Of a DNA stretch of 64,000 nt, positions 1,062-56,210 are shown piece by piece (position 1 is the stretch's first letter; every line of letters begins with the position of its first letter). Origin of the DNA: a virus (Duplodnaviria; Caudoviricetes). Position numbers and translations under genes: made by a program. The stretch is from positions 22,651 to 86,650 of IMG/VR virus record IMGVR_UViG_3300048890_000142; one strand, given 5' to 3'. The notes below the pieces were generated by a model. It saw nothing but the letters and a program-made list of their open reading frames with translations. It made no database searches and had not been told where the DNA came from.

Positions 1062-1367
1062 GTGGGCGAACCCAGGCACGGGAGCCAGCGAGCCTACGTC
1101 AACGACGGCTGCCACTGCCCGGTCTGCCGGGAGGGCAACACCGCCCGGCACCGCGACCTGCGCAGGGGACGGTTCAATCGACGGGTACTCATCGACGGCA
1201 GGCTGGTCGCTCCCGTCCCGCCCGAGCGACACGCGTTGATGACGACGTACAACAACTGGGGATGTCGGTGCTGGCCCTGCACGCGCGCGGCCAGCGCCTA
1301 CAAGGTGGCGGCTCGCCGCAAGGGCGGGACGCCGGAGACCGACGACGCGAGAGAGGAACAGACGTGA
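1062..1367 (+). CDS. Small protein with two H..Y.N.GC.C..C zinc-binding repeats
   Basis: RHGSQRAYVNDGCHCPVC and RHALMTTYNNWGCRCWPC; GGAGG RBS 8 nt upstream of GTG. Confidence 0.65.
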   Translation: MGEPRHGSQRAYVNDGCHCPVCREGNTARHRDLRRGRFNRRVLIDGRLVAPVPPERHALMTTYNNWGCRCWPCTRAASAYKVAARRKGGTPETDDAREEQT

Positions 1368-1663
1368 CCGCCGCTGCCTATTCGATCTACTCCCGACTGG
1401 ACCCGAAGATCACCTGGAGGTTGGCCGGCCTGCTGCTGGTGCTCGGGGCGTACCTGGCACCCGGACGTCGGGTCAAGCACGGCGGTCACGGACACCTGAC
1501 GCGTCAGCCTCGACTCACCGCCGGGCTGGTCGTATCCGCCCACTATCTGGTGGCTCTGGCTCACGGCGACGACTCCGCGATCGGTCGCCGCTGGATACGC
1601 GTCGTCGGCCGCGCCGTGGCCGGTGCCGCGACGATCGGACTCGGCGTCTTGGCGGGGGTTTAA
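1364..1663 (+). CDS. Membrane protein
   Basis: GTGA overlap with the upstream gene; 2-3 hydrophobic segments. Confidence 0.55.
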   Translation: MTAAAYSIYSRLDPKITWRLAGLLLVLGAYLAPGRRVKHGGHGHLTRQPRLTAGLVVSAHYLVALAHGDDSAIGRRWIRVVGRAVAGAATIGLGVLAGV

Positions 1664-1916
1664 TCTACCGATCCGGTCGGTTCTGTGTTAACGTCAGCTC
1701 GTACAACGAGGGCGTCGATGCGTCAAAGCGTTGCCACAACTGCTGCTCCACGTAGGTTCTCGCGCAAAGGCCGTTCGGGAGGCTGAAGGTGGCTGTCTAC
1801 CTCCTGACATGAACGCGTCCTGCGTGATCGGCGCTCGCAAACGCTCGCGGCGACCTGTTGGGTGGCCTCACGGGTCGCCGCGAGCTCTCGTCAGACCGAA
1901 GGAAGGGAGTCCGACG

Positions 1917-2267
1917 ATGTTCCGGAAGTTCTTCGCCAACTTATTCGACTCGGGACCAGCGGACAGCGGCGTCTTCCGCGGACCTCGACTGTCCCAGGCC
2001 CGCTTGCTCCAGGGGCCTCGCTACGTGATCACCTTCTCGCCCGCAGGTTACGAGAACGTCCAGCTCGACTGGATGGGCGTCCTGGACGACGTCGACCTCA
2101 CCGTCGAGGAAGTACGCACCGGCTTCCAGACCTGGTTGGACACCGCCCCCCGGTCCCCGGACGGGGTGCCTCTACGGACCATCCAGGCGTGGATCAACGG
2201 GTCTTTCCGAGAGATCACCTTCCGCACCGACTGGGTCTCGGGCTTCGCAGTGCAGCGGGTCGGGTGA
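1917..2267 (+). CDS. Hypothetical protein
   Basis: GGAAGGGAG RBS before ATG 1917; globular-looking sequence; first gene of the glyco/terminase operon. Confidence 0.7.
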   Translation: MFRKFFANLFDSGPADSGVFRGPRLSQARLLQGPRYVITFSPAGYENVQLDWMGVLDDVDLTVEEVRTGFQTWLDTAPRSPDGVPLRTIQAWINGSFREITFRTDWVSGFAVQRVG

Positions 2268-2272
2268 TTCCG

Positions 2273-2467
2273 ATGGCACTCCACGTCCCCCTGCACGGCA
2301 ACGTCCGCTGCGCGACCTGCGAGCGGCCGGCCGGCGCGCTCTGGCTGTCCAACGAGTCCTTCGAAAGTGGCCGACGCGTGAGATTCAACGAGGTCACGCC
2401 CTGCGGATGTCGCGTCTATCTGCCTCGAGTCGACGCCCGGCCACCAGCTCGTAAGGTCCGCCGGTGA
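2273..2467 (+). CDS. Small Cys-containing protein (CxxC...CGC)
   Basis: ATG 6 nt after the upstream stop; GTGA overlap with the next gene. Confidence 0.55.
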   Translation: MALHVPLHGNVRCATCERPAGALWLSNESFESGRRVRFNEVTPCGCRVYLPRVDARPPARKVRR

Positions 2468-3075
2468 GCACCGTCGCGGTCTGCGTCCCCGCCATCCCAG
2501 TCCGGCGTGTCCAGCTCGCCGCGGCCCTGCGTACGGTCGCGCAGCAGACTCGACTGCCGGAGGAGATCCACGTCGAGCTGGACACTCGCCGACTCGGCGC
2601 CGCGGTCACCAGAAACCGGGCCTGGCGTCGGGCCACTACCGAGTGGGTCGCCTTTCTCGACGACGACGACGAGCTCATGCCCGAGCACCTCGAGGTGCTC
2701 ATGGGTCATCGGACGGGCGCGGACCTCGTCTATAGCTGGTTCCACCTCCCCGAGGCCGAGGACCCCCTCGCGGTACCGGTGAACGGCGTCCTACGGAGCC
2801 CCTTCGGCGTCGAGTTCGGACCCGAGCAGCGGGACTACATGATGACCACGGGTAACTTCGTCCCGGTCACCGTGCTGGTGCGTCGCGACCTCCTCGAGGA
2901 AGTCGACGGCTTCCCCGTCCCCGGCACCGAACGCTGGCCGGACGAGCACTGCGAGGACTGGGGGTGCTGGCGCGACATGCTCCAGGTCGGCGCGATCTTC
3001 CGGCACGTCCCGCAACGCACTTGGACCTGGCATCACCACGGCAGGAATACCAGCGGAAGGAGCGACAGATGGTGA
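2464..3075 (+). CDS. Glycosyltransferase family 2 (GT-A)
   Basis: VCVPAI, AAVTRNRA, WVAFLDDDDEL and EDWG motifs. Confidence 0.85.
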   Translation: MSTVAVCVPAIPVRRVQLAAALRTVAQQTRLPEEIHVELDTRRLGAAVTRNRAWRRATTEWVAFLDDDDELMPEHLEVLMGHRTGADLVYSWFHLPEAEDPLAVPVNGVLRSPFGVEFGPEQRDYMMTTGNFVPVTVLVRRDLLEEVDGFPVPGTERWPDEHCEDWGCWRDMLQVGAIFRHVPQRTWTWHHHGRNTSGRSDRW

Positions 3076-3770
3076 GCGTCCTCGTCCCCACCCGAGGGAG
3101 GCCGGAGGGCGTCGAGCGGCTGCTCGAGTCCGCCTACGATCTCTCGGAGGGACCGCTCGAGTTCGTGTTCTACATCGACGATGACGACCCCCGGGGAATT
3201 GAGACGATCGGAGTCATTCAACGTTACGGGGCCTTCGTGGTCGTCGGAAGTCGTATCACGCTCTCCCAGATGTGGAACGCGTGCTACGAGCGCGCCACCC
3301 ACGACCTGCTGATGCAGTGCGGCGACGACATCGTCTTCCGCACCCAGGGCTGGGACGTGATGTTCGCCCAGGCCTTCGAGCAGTACTCCGACCGGATCGC
3401 CTTCGTGCACGGCGACGACGGCTTCCAGCACGAGCGCATCGGGACCCACGGCGTCCTGCACCGCAACTGGGTCGAGGCGGTTGGCTACTTCGTTCCGCCG
3501 CACTTCGCCAGCGACTACAACGATCTCTGGCTCACCGAGGTCGCCGACGCCCTGAGCCGACGTGTCTACCTTCCCGGCGTGCTCACCGAACACATGCACC
3601 CGGTGGCCGGTAAGGGCGAGTTGGATCTCACCCACCAGGAGCGCCTCGAGCGCCACCGAATCGAGGACTGCGATTGGATCTGGCGGGAGACCGCCGGCGA
3701 GCGCGCGGCCGACGTAGCGAAGCTGCGCGCGGTCATCCTGCAGTCCCGAGGCGTCGAGGTCGCTTCGTGA
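3069..3770 (+). CDS. GT2-like glycosyltransferase
   Basis: VSVLVPTRGRP, FYIDDDD, LLMQCGDDIVFRT.GWD, DLWLTEVA and EHMHP motifs. Confidence 0.8.
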   Translation: MVSVLVPTRGRPEGVERLLESAYDLSEGPLEFVFYIDDDDPRGIETIGVIQRYGAFVVVGSRITLSQMWNACYERATHDLLMQCGDDIVFRTQGWDVMFAQAFEQYSDRIAFVHGDDGFQHERIGTHGVLHRNWVEAVGYFVPPHFASDYNDLWLTEVADALSRRVYLPGVLTEHMHPVAGKGELDLTHQERLERHRIEDCDWIWRETAGERAADVAKLRAVILQSRGVEVAS

Positions 3771-4468
3771 CGATCGAGGAGGACCCGACTTGGACGATCC
3801 TGGTTCCCACGCTCCAGCGGCGCGAGAACCGATTCGCGGTCCTGCGCGACGAGCTGCTGCGCCAGACCGAACCCTACGGCGGACGCGTCCGCGTCTGCGC
3901 GTTGTGGAACCGCGGCCAGCGCGCCCTCGGCGAGCTGCGCCAGGCCCTGGTCACCTACGTGCTCAGCGATTACGTGTCCTTCGTCGACGACGACGACGAG
4001 GTGCCGGCCTACTTCGTCGAGGAGGTCGTCCGCGCGCTGGAGTCCTGGCCCGATCAGGTCGGCTGGCGGATGCAGTGCATCCGGGACGGCGCCATGTTGA
4101 AGCCCACCTTCCACAGCGTCAAGTACGGCTCCTGGTGTGAGGACGACGCGGGTTACTACCGAGACGTCAGCCACCTGAACCCGGTGCGCCGGGACCTCGC
4201 GATCAAGTGCGACTTCCGGGAGGGCAGTCCTCCGGAGGACGTGGCCTGGGTCAAGCAGATGCGCGGTCTGGTTCGGACCGAGCAGATGGTGCCCGACAGG
4301 ATCATGTACTACTACCGATCGTCGTCCGCCGACAGTACCTGGCAACTGGGTAGCGTGGCCCCACCGACCGCCGAGGAGCTCGAGTCGGAACCACCTTACG
4401 TCGCCCACCGCGACTTCTTCTACCACCCGTGGTCCTACGGCCCGAACACCTGGGAGTCCCGTGTCTGA
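3767..4468 (+). CDS. GT2-like glycosyltransferase
   Basis: WTILVPTL, YVSFVDDDDEV, HLNPVRR and EDVAW motifs; GTGA overlap. Confidence 0.8.
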   Translation: MTIEEDPTWTILVPTLQRRENRFAVLRDELLRQTEPYGGRVRVCALWNRGQRALGELRQALVTYVLSDYVSFVDDDDEVPAYFVEEVVRALESWPDQVGWRMQCIRDGAMLKPTFHSVKYGSWCEDDAGYYRDVSHLNPVRRDLAIKCDFREGSPPEDVAWVKQMRGLVRTEQMVPDRIMYYYRSSSADSTWQLGSVAPPTAEELESEPPYVAHRDFFYHPWSYGPNTWESRV

Positions 4469-5420
4469 TCGAGTTCTCATCACCGGCGTCACCGGCTTCG
4501 TGGGCAGTCACGTCCTCGAGCACCAGCTGCGGATACCGGATCCGCCGTGCGTCGTCGGCGTCGGATCGTTCCGGAGCAACGGCACCGCCGACCGGGTCCT
4601 GGACGCCCTGTCGGGTCACCGTGACCTCTGCTACACGCAGCTCACGCACGACCTGACCGTGCCGATGTCCCCGCTTCAGCTACTTCAGCTGAACGGGGTG
4701 AACAGGATCGTCCACGTCGCCTCGCGCTGCTCGGTCGACGAGAGCATCCGGGACTCCGAGTCGTTCGTGCGCAACAACGTCGATCTACAGCTCACCGTAC
4801 TGGAACTCGCACGAGAGCTCGGGGTGCACCGGTTCGTCCACCTCTCCACCGACGAGGTGTACGGGCCGTACTCGCCGAGCACCCTCAACGACCACCGTCC
4901 GTCGAGCCCGTACTCCGCGTCCAAGGCCGCTCAACTGGACCTGTGTTCCGCCTGGGCGACGACCTTCGGTGTCCCGGTCTCCGTGCTCACCAGCGTGAAC
5001 ATGTTCGGCGAGAGGCAGAGTCAGCTCGCGTTCGTCCCCCGCCTGGTGCGCCTGATGCTGGCCGGCGAGCCGGTCACCGTGCACCTCAGCGACGGCGTAC
5101 CCGGCGGTCGCAACTACGTCTACGTCGGGGACGTGGCCCGACGACTCGTCGAGCTGTCCGAATCGCGGTCGGACGGAGCGGATCACCGGGTGGTCTTCGG
5201 CGCGGCCTTCGTCGACAACCTTGACCTTGCCCAACGGGTGGCCAAGATCTTGGACGTCGAGCCGAAGATCGATCTCGCAGAGGCCTCGGTCTCTCGCCCC
5301 GGCTACGACCACTCTTACGGCCTCGGCGGCGACTACAGCGTCGATTCCCTCACTCCGTTTGACTCTGCGCTACAGCGTACGGTCGAGTGGTTCGCGGAGC
5401 ATCCCAAGTGGCTGGCGTAG
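4461..5420 (+). CDS. NAD-dependent NDP-sugar 4,6-dehydratase (RmlB-like SDR)
   Basis: GVTGFVG Rossmann motif, SVDESI, STDEVYG (T-D-E triad) and YSASK (YxxxK) intact. Confidence 0.85.
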   Translation: MSDRVLITGVTGFVGSHVLEHQLRIPDPPCVVGVGSFRSNGTADRVLDALSGHRDLCYTQLTHDLTVPMSPLQLLQLNGVNRIVHVASRCSVDESIRDSESFVRNNVDLQLTVLELARELGVHRFVHLSTDEVYGPYSPSTLNDHRPSSPYSASKAAQLDLCSAWATTFGVPVSVLTSVNMFGERQSQLAFVPRLVRLMLAGEPVTVHLSDGVPGGRNYVYVGDVARRLVELSESRSDGADHRVVFGAAFVDNLDLAQRVAKILDVEPKIDLAEASVSRPGYDHSYGLGGDYSVDSLTPFDSALQRTVEWFAEHPKWLA

Positions 5421-43260: not shown

Positions 43261-43292
43261 GGGAGGCCGGGATTACCCTATCCCGACCTCCC
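43261..43292 (-). terminator. 13-bp hairpin closing the ncRNA unit
   Basis: GGGAGGTCGGGAT-AGGGTA-ATCCCGGCCTCCC; no U-tract. Confidence 0.6.
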
Positions 43293-43300
43293 TTCATGTT

Positions 43301-43319
43301 TCCCGATTTGCAGTCAGGA
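43301..43319 (-). ncRNA. Isolated tRNA-Cys(GCA)-like anticodon stem-loop
   Basis: TCCTGA-CTGCAAA-TCGGGA; no flanking D or T arm. Confidence 0.45.
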
Positions 43320-43349
43320 CTCGCCTTACGCGCGCGGACCGACGTTTAA

Positions 43350-43460
43350 GGACACTCGGCTCTGCTGATGACGTCGCGTCTTGCCATTGGACTACGTCCG
43401 CACGGAATTGGAGCGGACGGCTGGGTTCGAACCAGCACCTCGACGTCTGTGAACCTGTCC
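43350..43460 (-). ncRNA. Circularly permuted tRNA-Gly-like RNA (YrlA/Y-RNA topology), 111 nt
   Basis: T arm GCTGG-TTCGAAC-CCAGC, then CGTCCGC-T-CCA, 7-nt linker, GCGGACG-TA, D arm; closing stems GACGTCG/CGACGTC, GGTTC/GAGCC and GGACA/TGTCC. Confidence 0.8.
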
Positions 43461-43496
43461 GGAAGATGCCCGCGCTGGGCGCTTGCTGACGATCTT

Positions 43497-43740
43497 GTAG
43501 CGGAATTCTCATTCTCGGGGCACCCGTGCCTCTACCGGTTGGGCTACCCCGACTGAGGAAGCCCTCTGCTGCGACACAGAGAGCTCCCGAATTCCCGATG
43601 CCCGCCCGGACCAACTGGTGCGAACGTCGAGAAGAAGTACTCGCGAATCGGAGCGAGTACGTCGTGTCGGGGGAGGGGTTCGAACCCCCACTGTCGGGCG
43701 CTTGTTCAGGACGGTGATCGTGAGCTTGATCTTGCGCTAC
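43497..43740 (-). ncRNA. Circularly permuted tRNA-Leu-like RNA with a ~111-nt insertion
   Basis: GCGCCCG-ACAGT, T arm, CCCCGAC-A ... GTCGGGG-TA-GCCCAACCGGTAGAGGC-A-CGGGTGC; the 5' end GTAGCG pairs with CGCTAC. Confidence 0.75.
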
Positions 43741-43949
43741 GTCTGTAGATTACCAGACTTCAAGAGCGTCGTCAACGACTCGATGTAGTCGATCACGGCA
43801 CAGCACGCGACGTGCGGGGCCGCCGCTAGCGCGCACTCAAGGCCGTAGGCGACGACGCCCTCGGTCTCGTCGGGGCCGATCGTCACGGCCGGCAACGGGA
43901 CGCCCAGCACGGCGCGCCGGGCTTCCTCAGATAGCTCCGCGCGGCTCAC
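43737..43949 (-). CDS. Hypothetical protein
   Basis: GTGA overlap; its 3' end contains the ncRNA promoter. Confidence 0.5.
   Translation of the reverse strand: MSRAELSEEARRAVLGVPLPAVTIGPDETEGVVAYGLECALAAAPHVACCAVIDYIESLTTLLKSGNLQT
43747..43775 (-). promoter_or_regulatory. SigA-type promoter of the ncRNA unit
   Basis: TTGACG-17 nt-TAATCT; predicted start near 43740. Confidence 0.75.
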
Positions 43950-44158
43950 GGGATTCGCCGGCTAGCGGATTGCCGCGCAATCCACTCAAGGTCGTTCTCG
44001 AGCTCCATCTTGGCGATCTCCCGCGAGTACTTCAATCGCGCCTGGTCGCGAGTGCTCAAGAGACCAAGGACCAGGACGCCGAGCAGGACCAGCGCCGCGG
44101 CCGCGTAGAGGATCAGGACGAGCGCCGCGAACGGGCCCGGGATCGTTATCGCGTCCAT
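43946..44158 (-). CDS. Small membrane protein
   Basis: One long TM helix; translational coupling on both sides. Confidence 0.6.
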   Translation of the reverse strand: MDAITIPGPFAALVLILYAAAALVLLGVLVLGLLSTRDQARLKYSREIAKMELENDLEWIARQSASRRIP

Positions 44159-44931
44159 CAGTCCCGGTCCCCACTGACCTGGCCGCCGTCCAAGAGGTAG
44201 CTGAAGATCGCCTCGGAGTACGAGACGTCGACGACCTCGACGAGGTTCGCCCGCTCGCGGGCGGCCTTCACCGCGTCGCGCAGCCGGTCGATCCGGTCCA
44301 GCAGCTCGCGCTGGCGGTCCCACGGCAGGGCGCCGGAGTGCTTCACCAGGCTCCAGGTGCCGACTACGTCGTCCACCTCGTAGCGGTCGACCTGGGCCGG
44401 GTGCTCCGGGGTGGCCTTGACCATCACCTCGTAGCGCCGCGTCCGCTGGGTGCGGTGGGTCTGGATCGGGTCCGTGCGGTAGTGCCCGAGCGCCTCGTCG
44501 TAGTGCCACTGCTCCGCGGGATCCAGTACCGGCATCTTGGCGACGAACGTGCGCATGTCGGTGAGCTGCTTCTCCAGCCACAGTAGGTGCGTGGCCGGGA
44601 CGGCGCGCAGGAGCGGGGTCGTCCCGCCGGCGACGTCGACCACGCTGACGTCGGCCCTCGCGACCGAGTTGGTCGCGTCCCGCGAGGCGGTCAGGTCCCA
44701 CGGGCGAGCGAGCAGGTCGGCCAACTGGCGCAGCACGTCCGCGGCCTTCACCTGGACCTTCTTGGATTCCGAAGCCAGCGGGTCGCCGCCCTCGATGTAG
44801 GGCTCGTAGGTGCGGGACAGGCCGTCGTAGATCGTCGGCTTCTGCGCCTCGCGGTGCATGGCGGTCAGTTTCTGGTGCAGGCGCTCCCGCTCGCCCTTCT
44901 CCAGGGCGAGCAGGACGTTCATCTTGGTCAC
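44158..44931 (-). CDS. Conserved coiled-coil protein (DUF7873-like)
   Basis: KMNVLLALEKG...GLSRTYEP...ESKKVQVKA...ATN..ARADV...VPATHLLWLEKQL; AAGGAG RBS. Confidence 0.7.
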   Translation of the reverse strand: MTKMNVLLALEKGERERLHQKLTAMHREAQKPTIYDGLSRTYEPYIEGGDPLASESKKVQVKAADVLRQLADLLARPWDLTASRDATNSVARADVSVVDVAGGTTPLLRAVPATHLLWLEKQLTDMRTFVAKMPVLDPAEQWHYDEALGHYRTDPIQTHRTQRTRRYEVMVKATPEHPAQVDRYEVDDVVGTWSLVKHSGALPWDRQRELLDRIDRLRDAVKAARERANLVEVVDVSYSEAIFSYLLDGGQVSGDRD

Positions 44932-44980
44932 GCGCGTCACTCCTTTGATCATCGTGATAGTGAGGTCTCAACTACCTGGG

Positions 44981-48522: not shown

Positions 48523-49416
48523 TCAGTGTCCCGGCTGGACGATCACCGGAGAGCCGGCCGGGATCGGGATGATCTGGACCTTCCCGTCCTTGATCGCCTG
48601 GTTGATCGCCTGCTGCTGCTGGTAGGCCTGGTACCCGACGATTCCGCCGGGGAAGTTCTGCGCCGCCTGCTGGTCGACCGCCGCCGCCTGTTGGCGGAGC
48701 TCGGCCGCCTGCTTCGAGGTCAGCCCGTCCTTGAGCTGGCCGCTGATGTCCGGCTTCTGGAGCAGCACCGCGTTGATCTGGAAGAGGTCCTCGCCGAGCG
48801 TCAGGGGACGCAGGATGTTCGGCAACTGTGAGAGCACGTCGCGCTCCCACTGGGACTTCGCCGCGGTGTCGGTGTAGAGCTTCGCCCAGTCGTACTTCAG
48901 CGCCTCGTTGTCTGCGGCCCGGTCCACCGCCGCGCCGACGTAGTTGCGCAGCATCTCGTCCCAGCCCGGCTTCTTCATCTGCTGGCCGCCGTCGGTGGGC
49001 GCGACGTCGTACTTGGCCCCGATCAGCTCGTGGAACATCTGGATCCGGCCGCCGGGCCACTCCTTGCCGGTGGAGTCCTTGAACGAGGTGCAGTCCGTGT
49101 TCAGGGTGAACTTCACCGTGCCGGAGACGGAGATCTCCTGGCTGTCGTGCGTTGTGGAGGTCAGGTGCGCCGAGTCCGAGCCCTGCTGGTCGGAGAAGGT
49201 GAAGTCGCGCTGCCCGACGGGGTAGTAGTAGTGGTCGTCGTTGACGTCGTTGACCTCTCGGGTACCGGACCCGATGCACTGCACGAACTTATGCGAGTCG
49301 AAGGGGCCGCCGCCGTACTGCAGGGCGATCTCGCTGGCGGTGGTGTTGGCGATCGAGCACCCGGTCACCGTCACCAGGAGAGCGGCGACGGCGAGGGCGG
49401 TGAGTCTGGTCTTCAT
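48523..49416 (-). CDS. SPFH/band-7 domain lipoprotein
   Basis: Lipobox VTGC; YYYPVGQRDFTF, TVKFTLN, C-terminal QQQAIN.AI..GKVQIIPIP. Confidence 0.75.
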   Translation of the reverse strand: MKTRLTALAVAALLVTVTGCSIANTTASEIALQYGGGPFDSHKFVQCIGSGTREVNDVNDDHYYYPVGQRDFTFSDQQGSDSAHLTSTTHDSQEISVSGTVKFTLNTDCTSFKDSTGKEWPGGRIQMFHELIGAKYDVAPTDGGQQMKKPGWDEMLRNYVGAAVDRAADNEALKYDWAKLYTDTAAKSQWERDVLSQLPNILRPLTLGEDLFQINAVLLQKPDISGQLKDGLTSKQAAELRQQAAAVDQQAAQNFPGGIVGYQAYQQQQAINQAIKDGKVQIIPIPAGSPVIVQPGH

Positions 49417-50416: not shown

Positions 50417-50619
50417 GAGCTGGTGCGGATTCGAACCGCGTCCTCCGCTTTGGGCGACGGCCGGATCCATCCCCGGCCCCTTCCGACTCGTCCCGGATCC
50501 GCGCCCTCCATGGCGGTACGCGGTAGCCGGATTGACGGCGCGAGGCTCGTACGAGCCCCCGCCGCCCGTGGTCGGGGAGGGATTCGAACCCTCCCTGGTC
50601 CCCACTCGAGGGGGGACCA
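50417..50619 (-). ncRNA. Two tRNA T-arm/acceptor-strand modules (tRNA-like fragments)
   Basis: GAGGG-TTCGAAT-CCCTC-CCCGACC-A and GCGG-TTCGAAT-CCGC-A-CCAGCTC-A in a ~425-nt intergenic gap. Confidence 0.5.
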
Positions 50620-55040: not shown

Positions 55041-56210
55041 TCACTCCCCCTTGACGTTCACGAGTTGGCGGAGCACGTGCCGGACCTCGACGAGGTCGGC
55101 GGCGTCGGCCATCACCCGGTCGATGTCCTTGTAGGCCTGGGGGATCTCGTCCAGGAAGGCCTCCGAGTCGCGCCACTCGATGCCGGCCATCGCCTCGCAG
55201 AGCTGCTCGTGGGTGAACGTCCTCTTGGCGGCCGAGCGGGAGAAGTTCCGGCCGGCGCCGTGCGGGCTGGAGTTCAGGGACAGGCGGTTCCCGCGCCCGG
55301 TCACCACGTAGGACGCGGTGCCCATGGACCCCGGGATCAGGCCCGGCCACCCCTCGGAGGCCTCGATCGCCCCCTTGCGGCTCACCCACACGTCCTTGCC
55401 GAAGTGGTGCTCGAGCTGCGTGAAGTTGTGGTGACAGTTGATCCGCTCCAGCTCGTTCACGCCGCCGTCGGTCCACTCCTCGAAGGCGGCCGCGACCCGG
55501 TCCATCATCTCCTCGCGGTTGAGCAGCGCGAACCGCTGCGCCCACCGGAGCTCGCGGACGTAGGTCCAAAATTCGTCGGTGCCCTCTACCAGGTAGGCGA
55601 GGTCCGGGTCGGGCAGCGCGATCCACCACCGCTCGCACAGGGCGCGGGCGACCTTGATGTGGTGTTGGGCGATCTTGTTGCCGACCCCGCGGGAGCCGGA
55701 GTGCAGGAACAGCCAGACCCGATCGTCCTCGTCGGCGGTCACCTCGATGAAGTGGTTGCCGCTGCCGAGGCTGCCGAGCTGAAGCTCCCAATTTCCGACG
55801 TAGCTACCGGGATCGAAGCGGGCGACCGAGGCGTCGTCGGCGAGCTCGCTCACGCGCTTCTCGGCGCTCGGGGTGAGGGCGGCGTTGTACTTGCCGGCGG
55901 AGAGCGGCACGGCCCGCTCGATCGCCTCGCGCAGCACCGAGCGGTCCAGCCCCTCGAGTTCGTCGACGCGCCATCCGGTCCGCACGGCTATCATCCCGCA
56001 CCCAATATCGACCCCGACCGCGGCCGGGATGAGCGCGCGGAGGGTGGGGATCACGGACCCCACGGTGGCGCCCTTGCCGAGGTGGGCGTCCGGCATCAGG
56101 GCGACGTGCGGGTAGACGAACGGCATCGACGCGGTGCGCCGAGCCTGGTCCATCGTGTCGGACTCCAGGACGCTCGCCCAGTTGATCAGCTTCTCGTTCA
56201 CTCGTTCCAC
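55041..56210 (-). CDS. rtcB: RtcB RNA ligase (3'-phosphate/5'-OH)
   Basis: MPDAHLGKG, VGVDIGCG, LGSLGSGNHFIE, LHSGSRG, HHNF, IPGSMG, SPHGAGR, LDEIPQAYK; GGAGG RBS before GTG 56210. Confidence 0.95.
   Translation of the reverse strand: MERVNEKLINWASVLESDTMDQARRTASMPFVYPHVALMPDAHLGKGATVGSVIPTLRALIPAAVGVDIGCGMIAVRTGWRVDELEGLDRSVLREAIERAVPLSAGKYNAALTPSAEKRVSELADDASVARFDPGSYVGNWELQLGSLGSGNHFIEVTADEDDRVWLFLHSGSRGVGNKIAQHHIKVARALCERWWIALPDPDLAYLVEGTDEFWTYVRELRWAQRFALLNREEMMDRVAAAFEEWTDGGVNELERINCHHNFTQLEHHFGKDVWVSRKGAIEASEGWPGLIPGSMGTASYVVTGRGNRLSLNSSPHGAGRNFSRSAAKRTFTHEQLCEAMAGIEWRDSEAFLDEIPQAYKDIDRVMADAADLVEVRHVLRQLVNVKGE

What the first reader, a model, noticed from the sequence alone, without database searches (positions are those of the whole stretch)
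43350..43460. Permuted tRNA-Gly mimic with a genomically encoded CCA inside the acceptor loop
Seen in sequence: perfect 7-bp acceptor GCGGACG/CGTCCGC, U73, then CCA, joined to the 5' strand by only ATTCCGT; canonical U8A9, D loop with GG and T loop TTCGAAC. Established knowledge: G1-C72, C2-G71, G3-C70 and U73 are bacterial Gly identity elements, and two-piece tmRNAs are opened at this position by RNase P and 3' trimming. Inference: it may mature into a two-piece, aminoacylatable RNA that cannot decode, for example a glycine donor or a synthetase/EF-Tu sink, rather than a closed-loop Y RNA.
Basis: partly seen in the sequence, partly recalled or inferred. Interest (0 to 1): 0.75.

Follow-up and report, generated by a model that had tools for sequence, protein, structure and literature searches.

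The report
Back-to-front tRNA mimic beside DUF7873
The flagged stretch is a real tRNA-shaped RNA with its halves in swapped order and a built-in CCA; it is the second of two such mimics that follow an unstudied gene (DUF7873) in many phages and actinomycetes, a relative of bacterial Y RNAs with no Ro60 gene in this phage.

Summary
On the minus strand, 43460->43350 folds as a circularly permuted cloverleaf. It has a 7-bp acceptor GCGGACG/CGUCCGC, U73, an encoded CCA (43411-43409) and a 7-nt linker ending in U(-1).

It is not a lone "tRNA-Gly mimic". It is module B of a two-module RNA (module A: 43702->43517), and a DUF7873 gene (44931->44161) lies upstream on the same strand. This scan has noted the same cassette before on other DNA (180 notes, at least 113 genomes). 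I re-derived it independently:
- 81 of 87 bacterial loci with the RNA have DUF7873 just upstream.
- 31 of 34 phage records with the RNA have DUF7873.
- 76 of 80 DUF7873 loci chosen by protein alone have the RNA just downstream.

The closest known kind is YrlA, the Y RNA whose Mycobacterium smegmatis form is cut by RNase P and given CCA. Here no Ro60 gene is present and Rfam's YrlA model does not reach threshold.

The encoded CCA is strongly enriched in relatives (about 30-70% by sample; 1.6% expected) but not universal. C74 (about 90%) and U(-1) (about 70-85%) are better kept. The Gly-like G1-C2-G3 is not conserved.

Two-piece maturation is plausible and untested. Glycine charging is unsupported.

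The parts
44161..44931 (-). DUF7873 (PF25283) protein gene, the conserved partner of the RNA. The likely start is GUG at 44931, 8 nt after AAGGAG; the longest ORF is 44158-44952.
   Evidence: Pfam DUF7873 at 276 bits, E 9.7e-84. ORF listed. Homologues align from residue 8-10. AF2 model pLDDT 92.4 with no clear PDB match.
43737..44155 (-). Two small ORFs lie between DUF7873 and the RNA: a hydrophobic peptide of about 70 aa at the end of frame 43946-44971, and a 70-aa ORF at 43737-43949. In other carriers this gap is only about 85-140 nt.
   Evidence: not analysed further.
43747..43775 (-). Promoter-like site: TTGACG (43775-43770), 17-nt spacer, TAATCT (43752-43747). It lies about 40 nt upstream of module A.
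   Evidence: Read from the sequence. Inference only.
43517..43702 (-). Module A, a permuted tRNA-Leu-like mimic. Closing helix CGCCCG/CGGGUG, T arm GGGGG-UUCGAAC-CCCUC, acceptor CCCCGAC/GUCGGGG, A73, no CCA. A structured insert of about 111 nt (43664-43554) sits in the acceptor loop.
   Evidence: My model R1 scores it 55.5 bits, E 1e-13, and it was not in the training set. Fold. Its D arm matched 113 ARAGORN-called tRNA genes in phage contigs, 109 of them tRNA-Leu.
43350..43460 (-). Module B (the finding), a permuted tRNA mimic with encoded U73-CCA (43412-43409), linker AUUCCGU and G+1 at 43401.
   Evidence: R1 scores it 73 bits, but it was in the training set. The sequence is identical in contigs from four soil or rhizosphere DNA runs.
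43339..43351 (-). 3' motif CCUUAAACGUCGG directly after the basal helix. The same motif follows B modules in many carriers and is present in the Ro-linked YrlA of mycobacteriophage Bxz1.
43261..43292 (-). GC-rich hairpin GGGAGGUCGGGA-UAGGGUAA-UCCCGGCCUCCC, the likely 3' end (terminator) of the RNA unit.
   Evidence: Read from the sequence. Similar hairpins follow B in L164 and L140. It has no U tract, so this is an inference.

Best explanation
The stretch is module B of a non-coding RNA unit of about 480 nt (from about 43740 to about 43261, minus strand). The unit carries two circularly permuted, anticodon-less tRNA mimics: A, which is tRNA-Leu-derived, and B. It belongs to a conserved cassette, DUF7873 gene -> A -> B -> hairpin, found in many phages and in actinomycete and other bacterial chromosomes. 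In architecture and ancestry it is a YrlA-type (Y-RNA-like) tRNA mimic.

Shown here: the permuted fold, its covariation, the tandem A/B arrangement, the tight two-way linkage to DUF7873, and the absence of Ro60 in this phage and in most complete carrier phages.

Inferred: the RNA works as a particle with the DUF7873 protein rather than with Ro60.

Also inferred: module B, with its 7-bp acceptor, 5-bp T stem, U73, C74 and U(-1)/G+1, can be nicked by RNase P and trimmed or repaired to a CCA end, as shown experimentally for M. smegmatis YrlA. That would give a two-piece tRNA-like head on a long bulged stem.

What the particle does (RNA repair or surveillance, or counter-defence against tRNA-targeting host systems) is not known.
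For: Fold and covariation.

Homologous A/B pairs, none called as tRNA by ARAGORN.

Kinship with YrlA:
- Rfam RF02553 hits relatives at 24-45 bits, best E about 1e-7 to 1e-6 depending on the bases searched.
- My model R1 finds the YrlA of mycobacteriophage Bxz1 (36.7 bits, E 4e-8) about 190 nt upstream of its Ro-like gene gp220.
- The motif CUUAAACGYCG is shared with that YrlA.

Linkage to DUF7873:
- 81 of 87 bacterial loci have it on the same strand, ending about 100 nt upstream of A.
- The own phage has it.
- 31 of 34 phage records with the RNA have it. The three without are exactly those whose mimics sit directly upstream of Ro60.
- From the protein side, 76 of 80 DUF7873 loci have an R1 hit just downstream on the same strand.

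Ro60: TROVE is absent from the own phage. It is absent from 16 of 20 carrier phage records that are at least 90% complete. Only 1 of 120 bacterial loci has it within 8 kb. Records G013 and G019 carry both systems: closed-loop mimics sit upstream of Ro60, and the A/B pair sits directly after DUF7873.

Processing features: in bacterial B modules, C74 in 83 of 87 and U(-1) in 72 of 87; B loops are nearly always 6 nt or longer. Precedent in PMC4201824 and 10.1101/312249.
Against: There is no transcript, end-mapping, binding or processing datum for this RNA in any carrier.

The DUF7873 fold gives no hint of RNA binding or of any activity.

In this phage two small ORFs separate DUF7873 from the RNA, and the RNA seems to have its own promoter, so co-transcription is not assured.

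The encoded CCA is absent from half or more of relatives. It flips between UCCA, UCUG and UUCA within the single genus Lentzea. It may therefore be a decaying relic of the ancestral tRNA gene rather than a selected 3' end.

The host may encode Ro60, so a classical Y-RNA role cannot be excluded.

An earlier check in this scan priced the 'protein binds RNA, Ro-independent' reading at only 22 in 100.
Confidence: 0.7

Rival explanations
1. Classical Y RNA: the phage RNA binds the host's Ro60 (Rsr) and tethers or gates it, for example with PNPase. DUF7873 would be only a neighbour.
For: It has the YrlA architecture and shares a motif with the Ro-linked YrlA of Bxz1. Some phages place similar mimics directly upstream of Ro60. 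GUCGAGG at 43444-43438 is one mismatch from the GNCGAAN0-1G Ro motif (PMC4201824).
Against: There is no TROVE gene in this phage or in 16 of 20 complete carrier phages, and only 1 of 120 bacterial loci has one nearby. Where both systems exist, the A/B pair follows DUF7873, not Ro60. Rfam YrlA gives no hit here at E<=10.
Confidence: 0.12
2. One reading: module B matures into a two-piece RNA that GlyRS charges with glycine, and it acts as a glycine donor or as a sink for the synthetase or EF-Tu.
For: G1-C72, C2-G71, G3-C70, U73 and CCA are all present. CCA is enriched in relatives. RNase P cutting and CCA addition are shown for M. smegmatis YrlA (PMC4201824).
Against: G1-C2-G3 occurs in only 10 of 58 relatives, and the commonest start is GGC, so there is no conserved amino-acid identity. 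The anticodon bases C35 and C36, major GlyRS determinants by established knowledge, are absent. Many relatives lack the CCA.
Confidence: 0.08
3. A cis-acting 3' element of the DUF7873 messenger: tRNA-like structures that set the mRNA 3' end or stability through RNase P, like MALAT1/mascRNA, with no function of their own in trans.
For: In most carriers it lies on the same strand about 85-140 nt after the DUF7873 stop codon.
Against: Two modules, a long bulged stem and a 3' motif conserved across phyla are more than an end-forming signal needs. In this phage the RNA is 456 nt from the gene and has its own promoter-like site.
Confidence: 0.06
4. A permuted pre-tRNA that is circularised (the phage encodes RtcB) and re-opened to give a true decoding tRNA, or simply a decayed pair of tandem tRNA genes.
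For: RtcB is encoded at window 55047-56147(-). The idea is raised for YrlA in 10.1101/312249.
Against: No 7-nt anticodon loop with U33 can be formed from the flanks: the closing helix is 7 bp and continues into further helices. RtcB is absent from carrier phages G002 and G004. Covariation of the closing helix argues against decay.
Confidence: 0.03

Closest known systems
YrlA (Y RNA-like A; Rfam RF02553), especially the M. smegmatis form (Chen et al. 2014, PMC4201824; Wang et al. 2018, bioRxiv 10.1101/312249)
   Same: Circularly permuted tRNA-like head (T arm, capped acceptor stem, D arm) on a long bulged stem formed by the 5' and 3' ends. Often two RNAs in tandem. Found in actinobacteria and their phages. 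The M. smegmatis form has a 7-bp acceptor, is cut by RNase P, nibbled and given CCA. The motif CUUAAACGYCG is shared with the Bxz1 YrlA.
   Different: No Ro60 gene in this phage. The conserved neighbour is DUF7873. The Rfam model gives no hit on this window, and relatives score 24-45 bits against a 69-bit threshold. The CCA is encoded in the DNA in a large share of members. The acceptor loops are longer and pyrimidine-rich, whereas the Ro-linked phage copies seen here mostly have shorter caps (GAAA, CCCG, CUCG; also 6-9-nt loops), none with CCA.
Two-piece (permuted) tmRNA
   Same: A permuted gene with an encoded CCA followed by a linker and the 5' acceptor strand, opened by RNase P and 3' trimming.
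   Different: No tag reading frame, no G3-U70 alanine identity, and no tmRNA call by ARAGORN. The only cyanobacterial tmRNA match was 17 bits on a relative.
Band-7-associated tRNA and Ro-independent tRNA-like partners of RNA-repair systems (Burroughs and Aravind 2016, as cited in 10.1101/312249; I could not read the paper)
   Same: The idea of a tRNA-like RNA working with a non-Ro protein near RtcB. This phage encodes RtcB and a weak Band_7-like ORF.
   Different: That RNA is described as resembling an authentic tRNA beside a Band-7 protein. Here the RNA is permuted, doubled, and tied to DUF7873. RtcB is 11 kb away and absent from other carriers.
Permuted tRNA genes of Cyanidioschyzon merolae and some algae and archaea
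   Same: The 3' half lies upstream of the 5' half, joined at the acceptor end.
   Different: Those regenerate an anticodon loop through a bulge-helix-bulge cut and ligation. Here no anticodon loop can form.

Membership tests
YrlA / bacterial Y RNA (RF02553) | Permuted order: paired ends, T arm, capped acceptor stem, D arm | tested here: met
   My model R1 also recognises the Bxz1 YrlA.
YrlA / bacterial Y RNA (RF02553) | Reaches Rfam's gathering score (69 bits) | tested here: not met
   No hit on this window at E<=10. Relatives score 24-45 bits. The accepted Bxz1 YrlA also scores only 32.5 bits, so this test is harsh.
YrlA / bacterial Y RNA (RF02553) | Encoded within about 4 kb of Ro60/Rsr (TROVE) on the same strand | tested here: not met
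   No TROVE in the complete 86.6-kb phage.
YrlA / bacterial Y RNA (RF02553) | GNCGAAN0-1G motif near the 5' end (proposed Ro60 contact) | tested here: inconclusive
   GUCGAGG at 43444-43438 has one mismatch and lies next to the variable loop, not near the 5' end. Bxz1 has GCCGAGAG.
YrlA / bacterial Y RNA (RF02553) | Binds Ro60 | not testable with these tools
   Needs immunoprecipitation or EMSA.
DUF7873-linked double tRNA-mimic RNA (a class defined by this scan, not in print as far as I could search) | DUF7873 gene upstream on the same strand | tested here: met
   linkage statistics.
DUF7873-linked double tRNA-mimic RNA (a class defined by this scan, not in print as far as I could search) | Two permuted modules in tandem, the first tRNA-Leu-like, then the CUUAAACGYCG motif and a hairpin | tested here: met
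   Spacing is 253 nt here against about 145-150 nt elsewhere, because of the 111-nt insert in module A.
Canonical tRNA (RF00005) | Anticodon arm; normal 5'-to-3' order | tested here: not met
   ARAGORN finds none. The RF00005 hit overlapping module B (43412-43473) scores 15.6 bits against a 29-bit threshold, and the best whole-genome hit is 9.9 bits.
Two-piece tmRNA | Tag-peptide frame and G3-U70 | tested here: not met
   ARAGORN makes no tmRNA call. The pair at positions 3 and 70 is G3-C70.
tRNA-Gly identity set | G1-C72, C2-G71, G3-C70, U73 present and conserved in homologues; C35 and C36 | tested here: not met
   The acceptor set is present here but occurs in only 10 of 58 relatives. There is no anticodon.

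The most novel reading that the evidence does not exclude
Module B, and often A, of the DUF7873 RNA is routinely opened by RNase P at U(-1)/G+1 and trimmed or rebuilt to a CCA end. This would give a two-piece, anticodon-less tRNA that is aminoacylated or otherwise engaged at its 3' end. Together with DUF7873 it would form a Ro60-independent particle. Candidate roles are a bait, sensor or decoy for host systems that attack tRNA acceptor ends, or an aminoacyl donor outside translation.
Probability: 0.15. Interest if true: 0.85.

Novelty: new variant of a known kind. Interest (0 to 1): 0.6.

Why it matters
Y-RNA-like tRNA mimics are known only as partners of Ro60. Here the same RNA design, doubled, is tied instead to one unstudied protein. 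It occurs in hundreds of phage contigs (295 IMG/VR contigs encode the protein) and in many actinomycete chromosomes. If the pair is a particle, it is a second, Ro-independent class of tRNA-mimic RNP, possibly acting in RNA repair or in phage-host conflicts over tRNA.

For this finding in particular, the kept discriminator base, C74 and U(-1), and the frequent encoded CCA, make one question directly testable: do bacterial tRNA mimics work with an open, tRNA-like 3' end? In print this has been seen once, in M. smegmatis.

Tried and rejected
- ARAGORN and Rfam at gathering threshold on the window: nothing.
- blastn of the region against GenBank phages: no match.
- Relatives fetched through the neighbouring DNA polymerase (L001-L018) did not carry the RNA next to the polymerase. 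The closest relative (90% identical) is a fragment that lacks the region, and L004 was a chance match inside a gene.
- My first Pfam scan used the wrong frame (43946-44971) and so missed DUF7873 (corrected).
- Sequencing runs: no RNA holder listed. Only DNA contigs could be laid.
- DUF7873 found no PHROG, no PADLOC family and no PDB sequence match.
- No clear fold match for DUF7873. The best Foldseek E-value was 9e-3. The best VIA Z was 7.7 and covered only the helices.
- The protein atlas returned only DUF7873 clusters.
- No paper in the library holds 'DUF7873'. Burroughs and Aravind 2016 and Sim et al. 2020 are not held.
- RtcB as a conserved partner: rejected, because it is absent from G002 and G004.
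- 'Encoded CCA marks Ro-less phages': rejected, because Ro-encoding G013, G019 and G042 also carry CCA-type modules.
- Words shared between the RNA flanks and the DUF7873 start region are only weakly enriched. For 5-mers, 12 of 427 control windows score as high; 6-mers are not enriched.

Full report
**1. What is there**

The window is part of an 86,650-bp virus record with direct terminal repeats and about 68% G+C. Its genes include a family-A DNA polymerase, an SNF2 helicase and a PD-(D/E)XK nuclease.

The finding lies on the minus strand.
- a perfect 7-bp acceptor, GCGGACG (43401-43395) with CGUCCGC (43419-43413);
- U73, and CCA at 43411-43409;
- the 7-nt linker AUUCCGU;
- U8 A9, a D loop with GG, and the T loop UUCGAAC.

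The order is: paired ends, variable loop, T arm, 3' acceptor strand, loop, 5' acceptor strand, D arm, paired ends. This is a circularly permuted tRNA body whose anticodon stem is replaced by three stacked helices. The unconstrained fold reproduces this shape. ARAGORN and Rfam call nothing here.

**2. It is one of two modules**

A second permuted module (A) lies upstream at 43702-43517. It has acceptor GUCGGGG/CCCCGAC, A73 and no CCA. A structured insert of about 111 nt sits in its acceptor loop. A covariance model built from relatives, without module A in the training set, scores it 55.5 bits, E 1e-13. Its D arm matched 113 ARAGORN-called tRNA genes in phage contigs, 109 of them tRNA-Leu.

**3. 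Relatives**

I scanned for a T arm followed by a complementary acceptor strand. Tandem A/B pairs turned up first in a distant phage (G002). Pattern scans of IMG/VR then found them in many high-G+C phage contigs. ARAGORN calls none of them a tRNA.

The structure is supported by covariation:
- In 36 sequences, 83% of cells are paired against 58% in shuffles.
- The covariation score is 0.638 against 0.192; 0 of 500 shuffles reach it.
- With partners slid by 1-3 columns, pairing drops to 40-49%.

The acceptor and T stems were used to select the sequences, so they prove little. The closing helix was not used for selection. It pairs at 4.13 of 5 against 3.07 +/- 0.12 in a flank-swap control, with 39 different sequence pairs.

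**4. Relation to YrlA**

The architecture is that of YrlA, the tRNA-mimicking bacterial Y RNA (PMC4201824; 10.1101/312249).
- Rfam's YrlA model hits several relatives below threshold; the best is 44.7 bits, full length, E about 1e-7 to 1e-6 depending on the bases searched. It does not hit this window.
- My model R1 finds the accepted YrlA of mycobacteriophage Bxz1 (36.7 bits, E 4e-8), about 190 nt upstream of its Ro-like gene gp220. Rfam's model scores that RNA only 32.5 bits.
- The Bxz1 RNA carries CUUAAACGCCGG after its D arm. The same motif follows module B here (43351-43339) and in many relatives.

The RNAs are therefore kin. Both papers report that M. smegmatis YrlA, which has a 7-bp acceptor, is cut by RNase P, nibbled and given CCA in vivo.

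**5. The partner is not Ro60 but DUF7873**

TROVE is absent from this phage. It is also absent from 16 of the 20 carrier phage records that are at least 90% complete.

They are mostly actinomycetes: Nonomuraea, Lentzea, Plantactinospora, Planotetraspora, Streptosporangium and others.
- 87 of these loci carry module B, and 79 of them have an A partner found upstream by the strict scan.
- Only one has a TROVE gene within the 8-kb locus.
- 81 of the 87 have the same ORF on the same strand, ending about 100 nt upstream of A. This ORF is Pfam DUF7873, 400 bits.

The phage has DUF7873 at 44931-44161 on the minus strand (276 bits). My first Pfam scan used the wrong frame and missed it.

DUF7873 is present in 31 of 34 phage records that carry the RNA. 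Wherever I checked, it lies directly upstream on the same strand. The three records without it (G007, G008, Bxz1) are exactly those whose mimics sit directly upstream of Ro60; those mimics have no CCA, with loops from tetraloops to 17 nt.

Two phages (G013, G019) have both systems. Closed-loop mimics sit upstream of Ro60, and the A/B pair sits after DUF7873.

I also tested the linkage from the protein side. 295 IMG/VR contigs encode DUF7873. Of the best 80 loci, 76 have a model hit just downstream on the same strand.

This scan had noted the same cassette before on other DNA: 180 notes in at least 113 genomes. My derivation was independent up to that look-up, and it agrees.

**6. DUF7873 itself**

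The AF2 model is confident (pLDDT 92.4, pTM 0.79). It shows four long helices and a beta sheet. There is no clear fold match in the PDB, no PHROG, PADLOC or PDB sequence hit, and no paper in the library. Its activity is unknown.

**7. The CCA question**

I used three samples that do not depend on the loop sequence.

| Sample | n | N-CCA at 74-76 | C74 | U73 | U(-1) |
|---|---|---|---|---|---|
| Phage B modules found by T arm plus 3' motif | 17 | 12 | 15 | 13 | 15 |
| Protein-ascertained phage set, non-Leu-like elements | 58 | 29 | 51 | 32 | 41 |
| Protein-ascertained phage set, Leu-like elements | 33 | 14 | 31 | 12 | 18 |
| Bacterial B modules | 87 | 28 | 83 | 80 | 72 |

CCA at a fixed place is expected in 1.6% of cases, so it is enriched 20- to 45-fold. 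It is still far from universal.
- Within Lentzea the same acceptor stem carries UCCA, UCUG or UUCA.
- Common variants such as UCUACGU and UCUUCGU are one or two transitions from UCCACGU.

C74 (about 90% in every sample) and U(-1) (about 55-90% by sample) are the steadiest features, and U73 is nearly fixed in the bacterial B modules. B loops are almost never short stable caps: only 1 of 58 is 5 nt or less.

This pattern fits the M. smegmatis route: RNase P cut, nibbling back, CA addition. It fits a relic under partial constraint equally well. The Gly-like G1-C2-G3 is found in only 10 of 58 relatives. There is no anticodon, so a glycine identity is not supported.

**8. Other data**

- DNA contigs from four soil or rhizosphere runs carry the region. 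Module B is identical in all of them. Module A differs at four sites, all in loops or in the insert.
- The phage encodes RtcB at 55047-56147 on the minus strand and a sub-threshold Band_7-like ORF. RtcB is absent from other carriers.

**9. Verdict**

It is a permuted tRNA mimic with features of an RNase P substrate, but it is not a specific glycine mimic and not a lone element.

It is module B of the DUF7873-linked double tRNA-mimic RNA. This is a YrlA-like RNA with a different conserved protein neighbour. As far as I could search, it is not in Rfam or in print.

Still inferred and untested: function, protein binding, processing and charging.

Noticed in passing
window 43554-43664 (-): Module A's acceptor loop holds an insert of about 111 nt. 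It contains a terminator-like hairpin (43660-43637, followed by UUCUUCU) and a second strong hairpin. Inserts of more than 30 nt in acceptor loops recur in 16 of 91 phage elements. The two halves of A might be made as separate transcripts.
   Followed up: partly
window 43301-43319 (-): Downstream of module B there is a 6-bp hairpin with the 7-nt loop CUGCAAA, shaped like an anticodon arm (GCA). I did not test whether it is conserved.
   Followed up: no
window 50417-50619 (-): A second intergenic spot holds two T-arm-like hairpins (GGAGG-GUUCGAAUC-CCUCC and GCGG-UUCGAAU-CCGC). Model R1 gives only a partial hit at 50593-50558 (19 bits, E 0.001). No complete permuted module is present.
   Followed up: partly
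window 55047-56147 (-) and 48670-49293 (-): The phage encodes an intact RtcB RNA ligase (388 bits) and an ORF with a sub-threshold Band_7/SPFH match (19.1 bits against a 23.6-bit cut-off). Both are themes of RNA-repair systems that use tRNA-like RNAs.
   Followed up: partly
window 43703-43745, 43461-43516 and 44915-44975 (-): The single-stranded flanks of the RNA and the DUF7873 start region share short words (CAAGAU, GAUCAA, CACGAU, CUCAC). GAUCAA abuts the Shine-Dalgarno sequence. The enrichment is weak: for 5-mers, 12 of 427 control windows score as high.
   Followed up: partly
G013 (L321, L150) and G019 (L322, L201): Two phages carry both systems. Ro60 has its own closed-loop YrlA-like RNAs upstream, and a separate DUF7873 gene is followed by the A/B pair 4-6 kb away. 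This argues that the two are distinct systems.
   Followed up: yes
L395 (Plantactinospora sp. WMMB782, 8.2-Mb contig) 1263-4572: Here the DUF7873-A-B cassette sits inside an array of 16 tRNA genes. In several phages (G002, L140, L150, L178, L202) it also adjoins tRNA genes.
   Followed up: no
window 43737-44155 (-): Two small ORFs, one a hydrophobic peptide of about 70 aa, are wedged between DUF7873 and the RNA in this phage. Other carriers have only about 85-140 nt in that gap.
   Followed up: no
L339 2975-3075 (Mycobacterium phage Bxz1, record positions 129974-130074): The Ro-linked YrlA of Bxz1 carries CUUAAACGCCGGUGG directly after its D arm. The same motif follows module B of the DUF7873 RNAs, so it is a shared and unexplained signature of both kinds.
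   Followed up: partly
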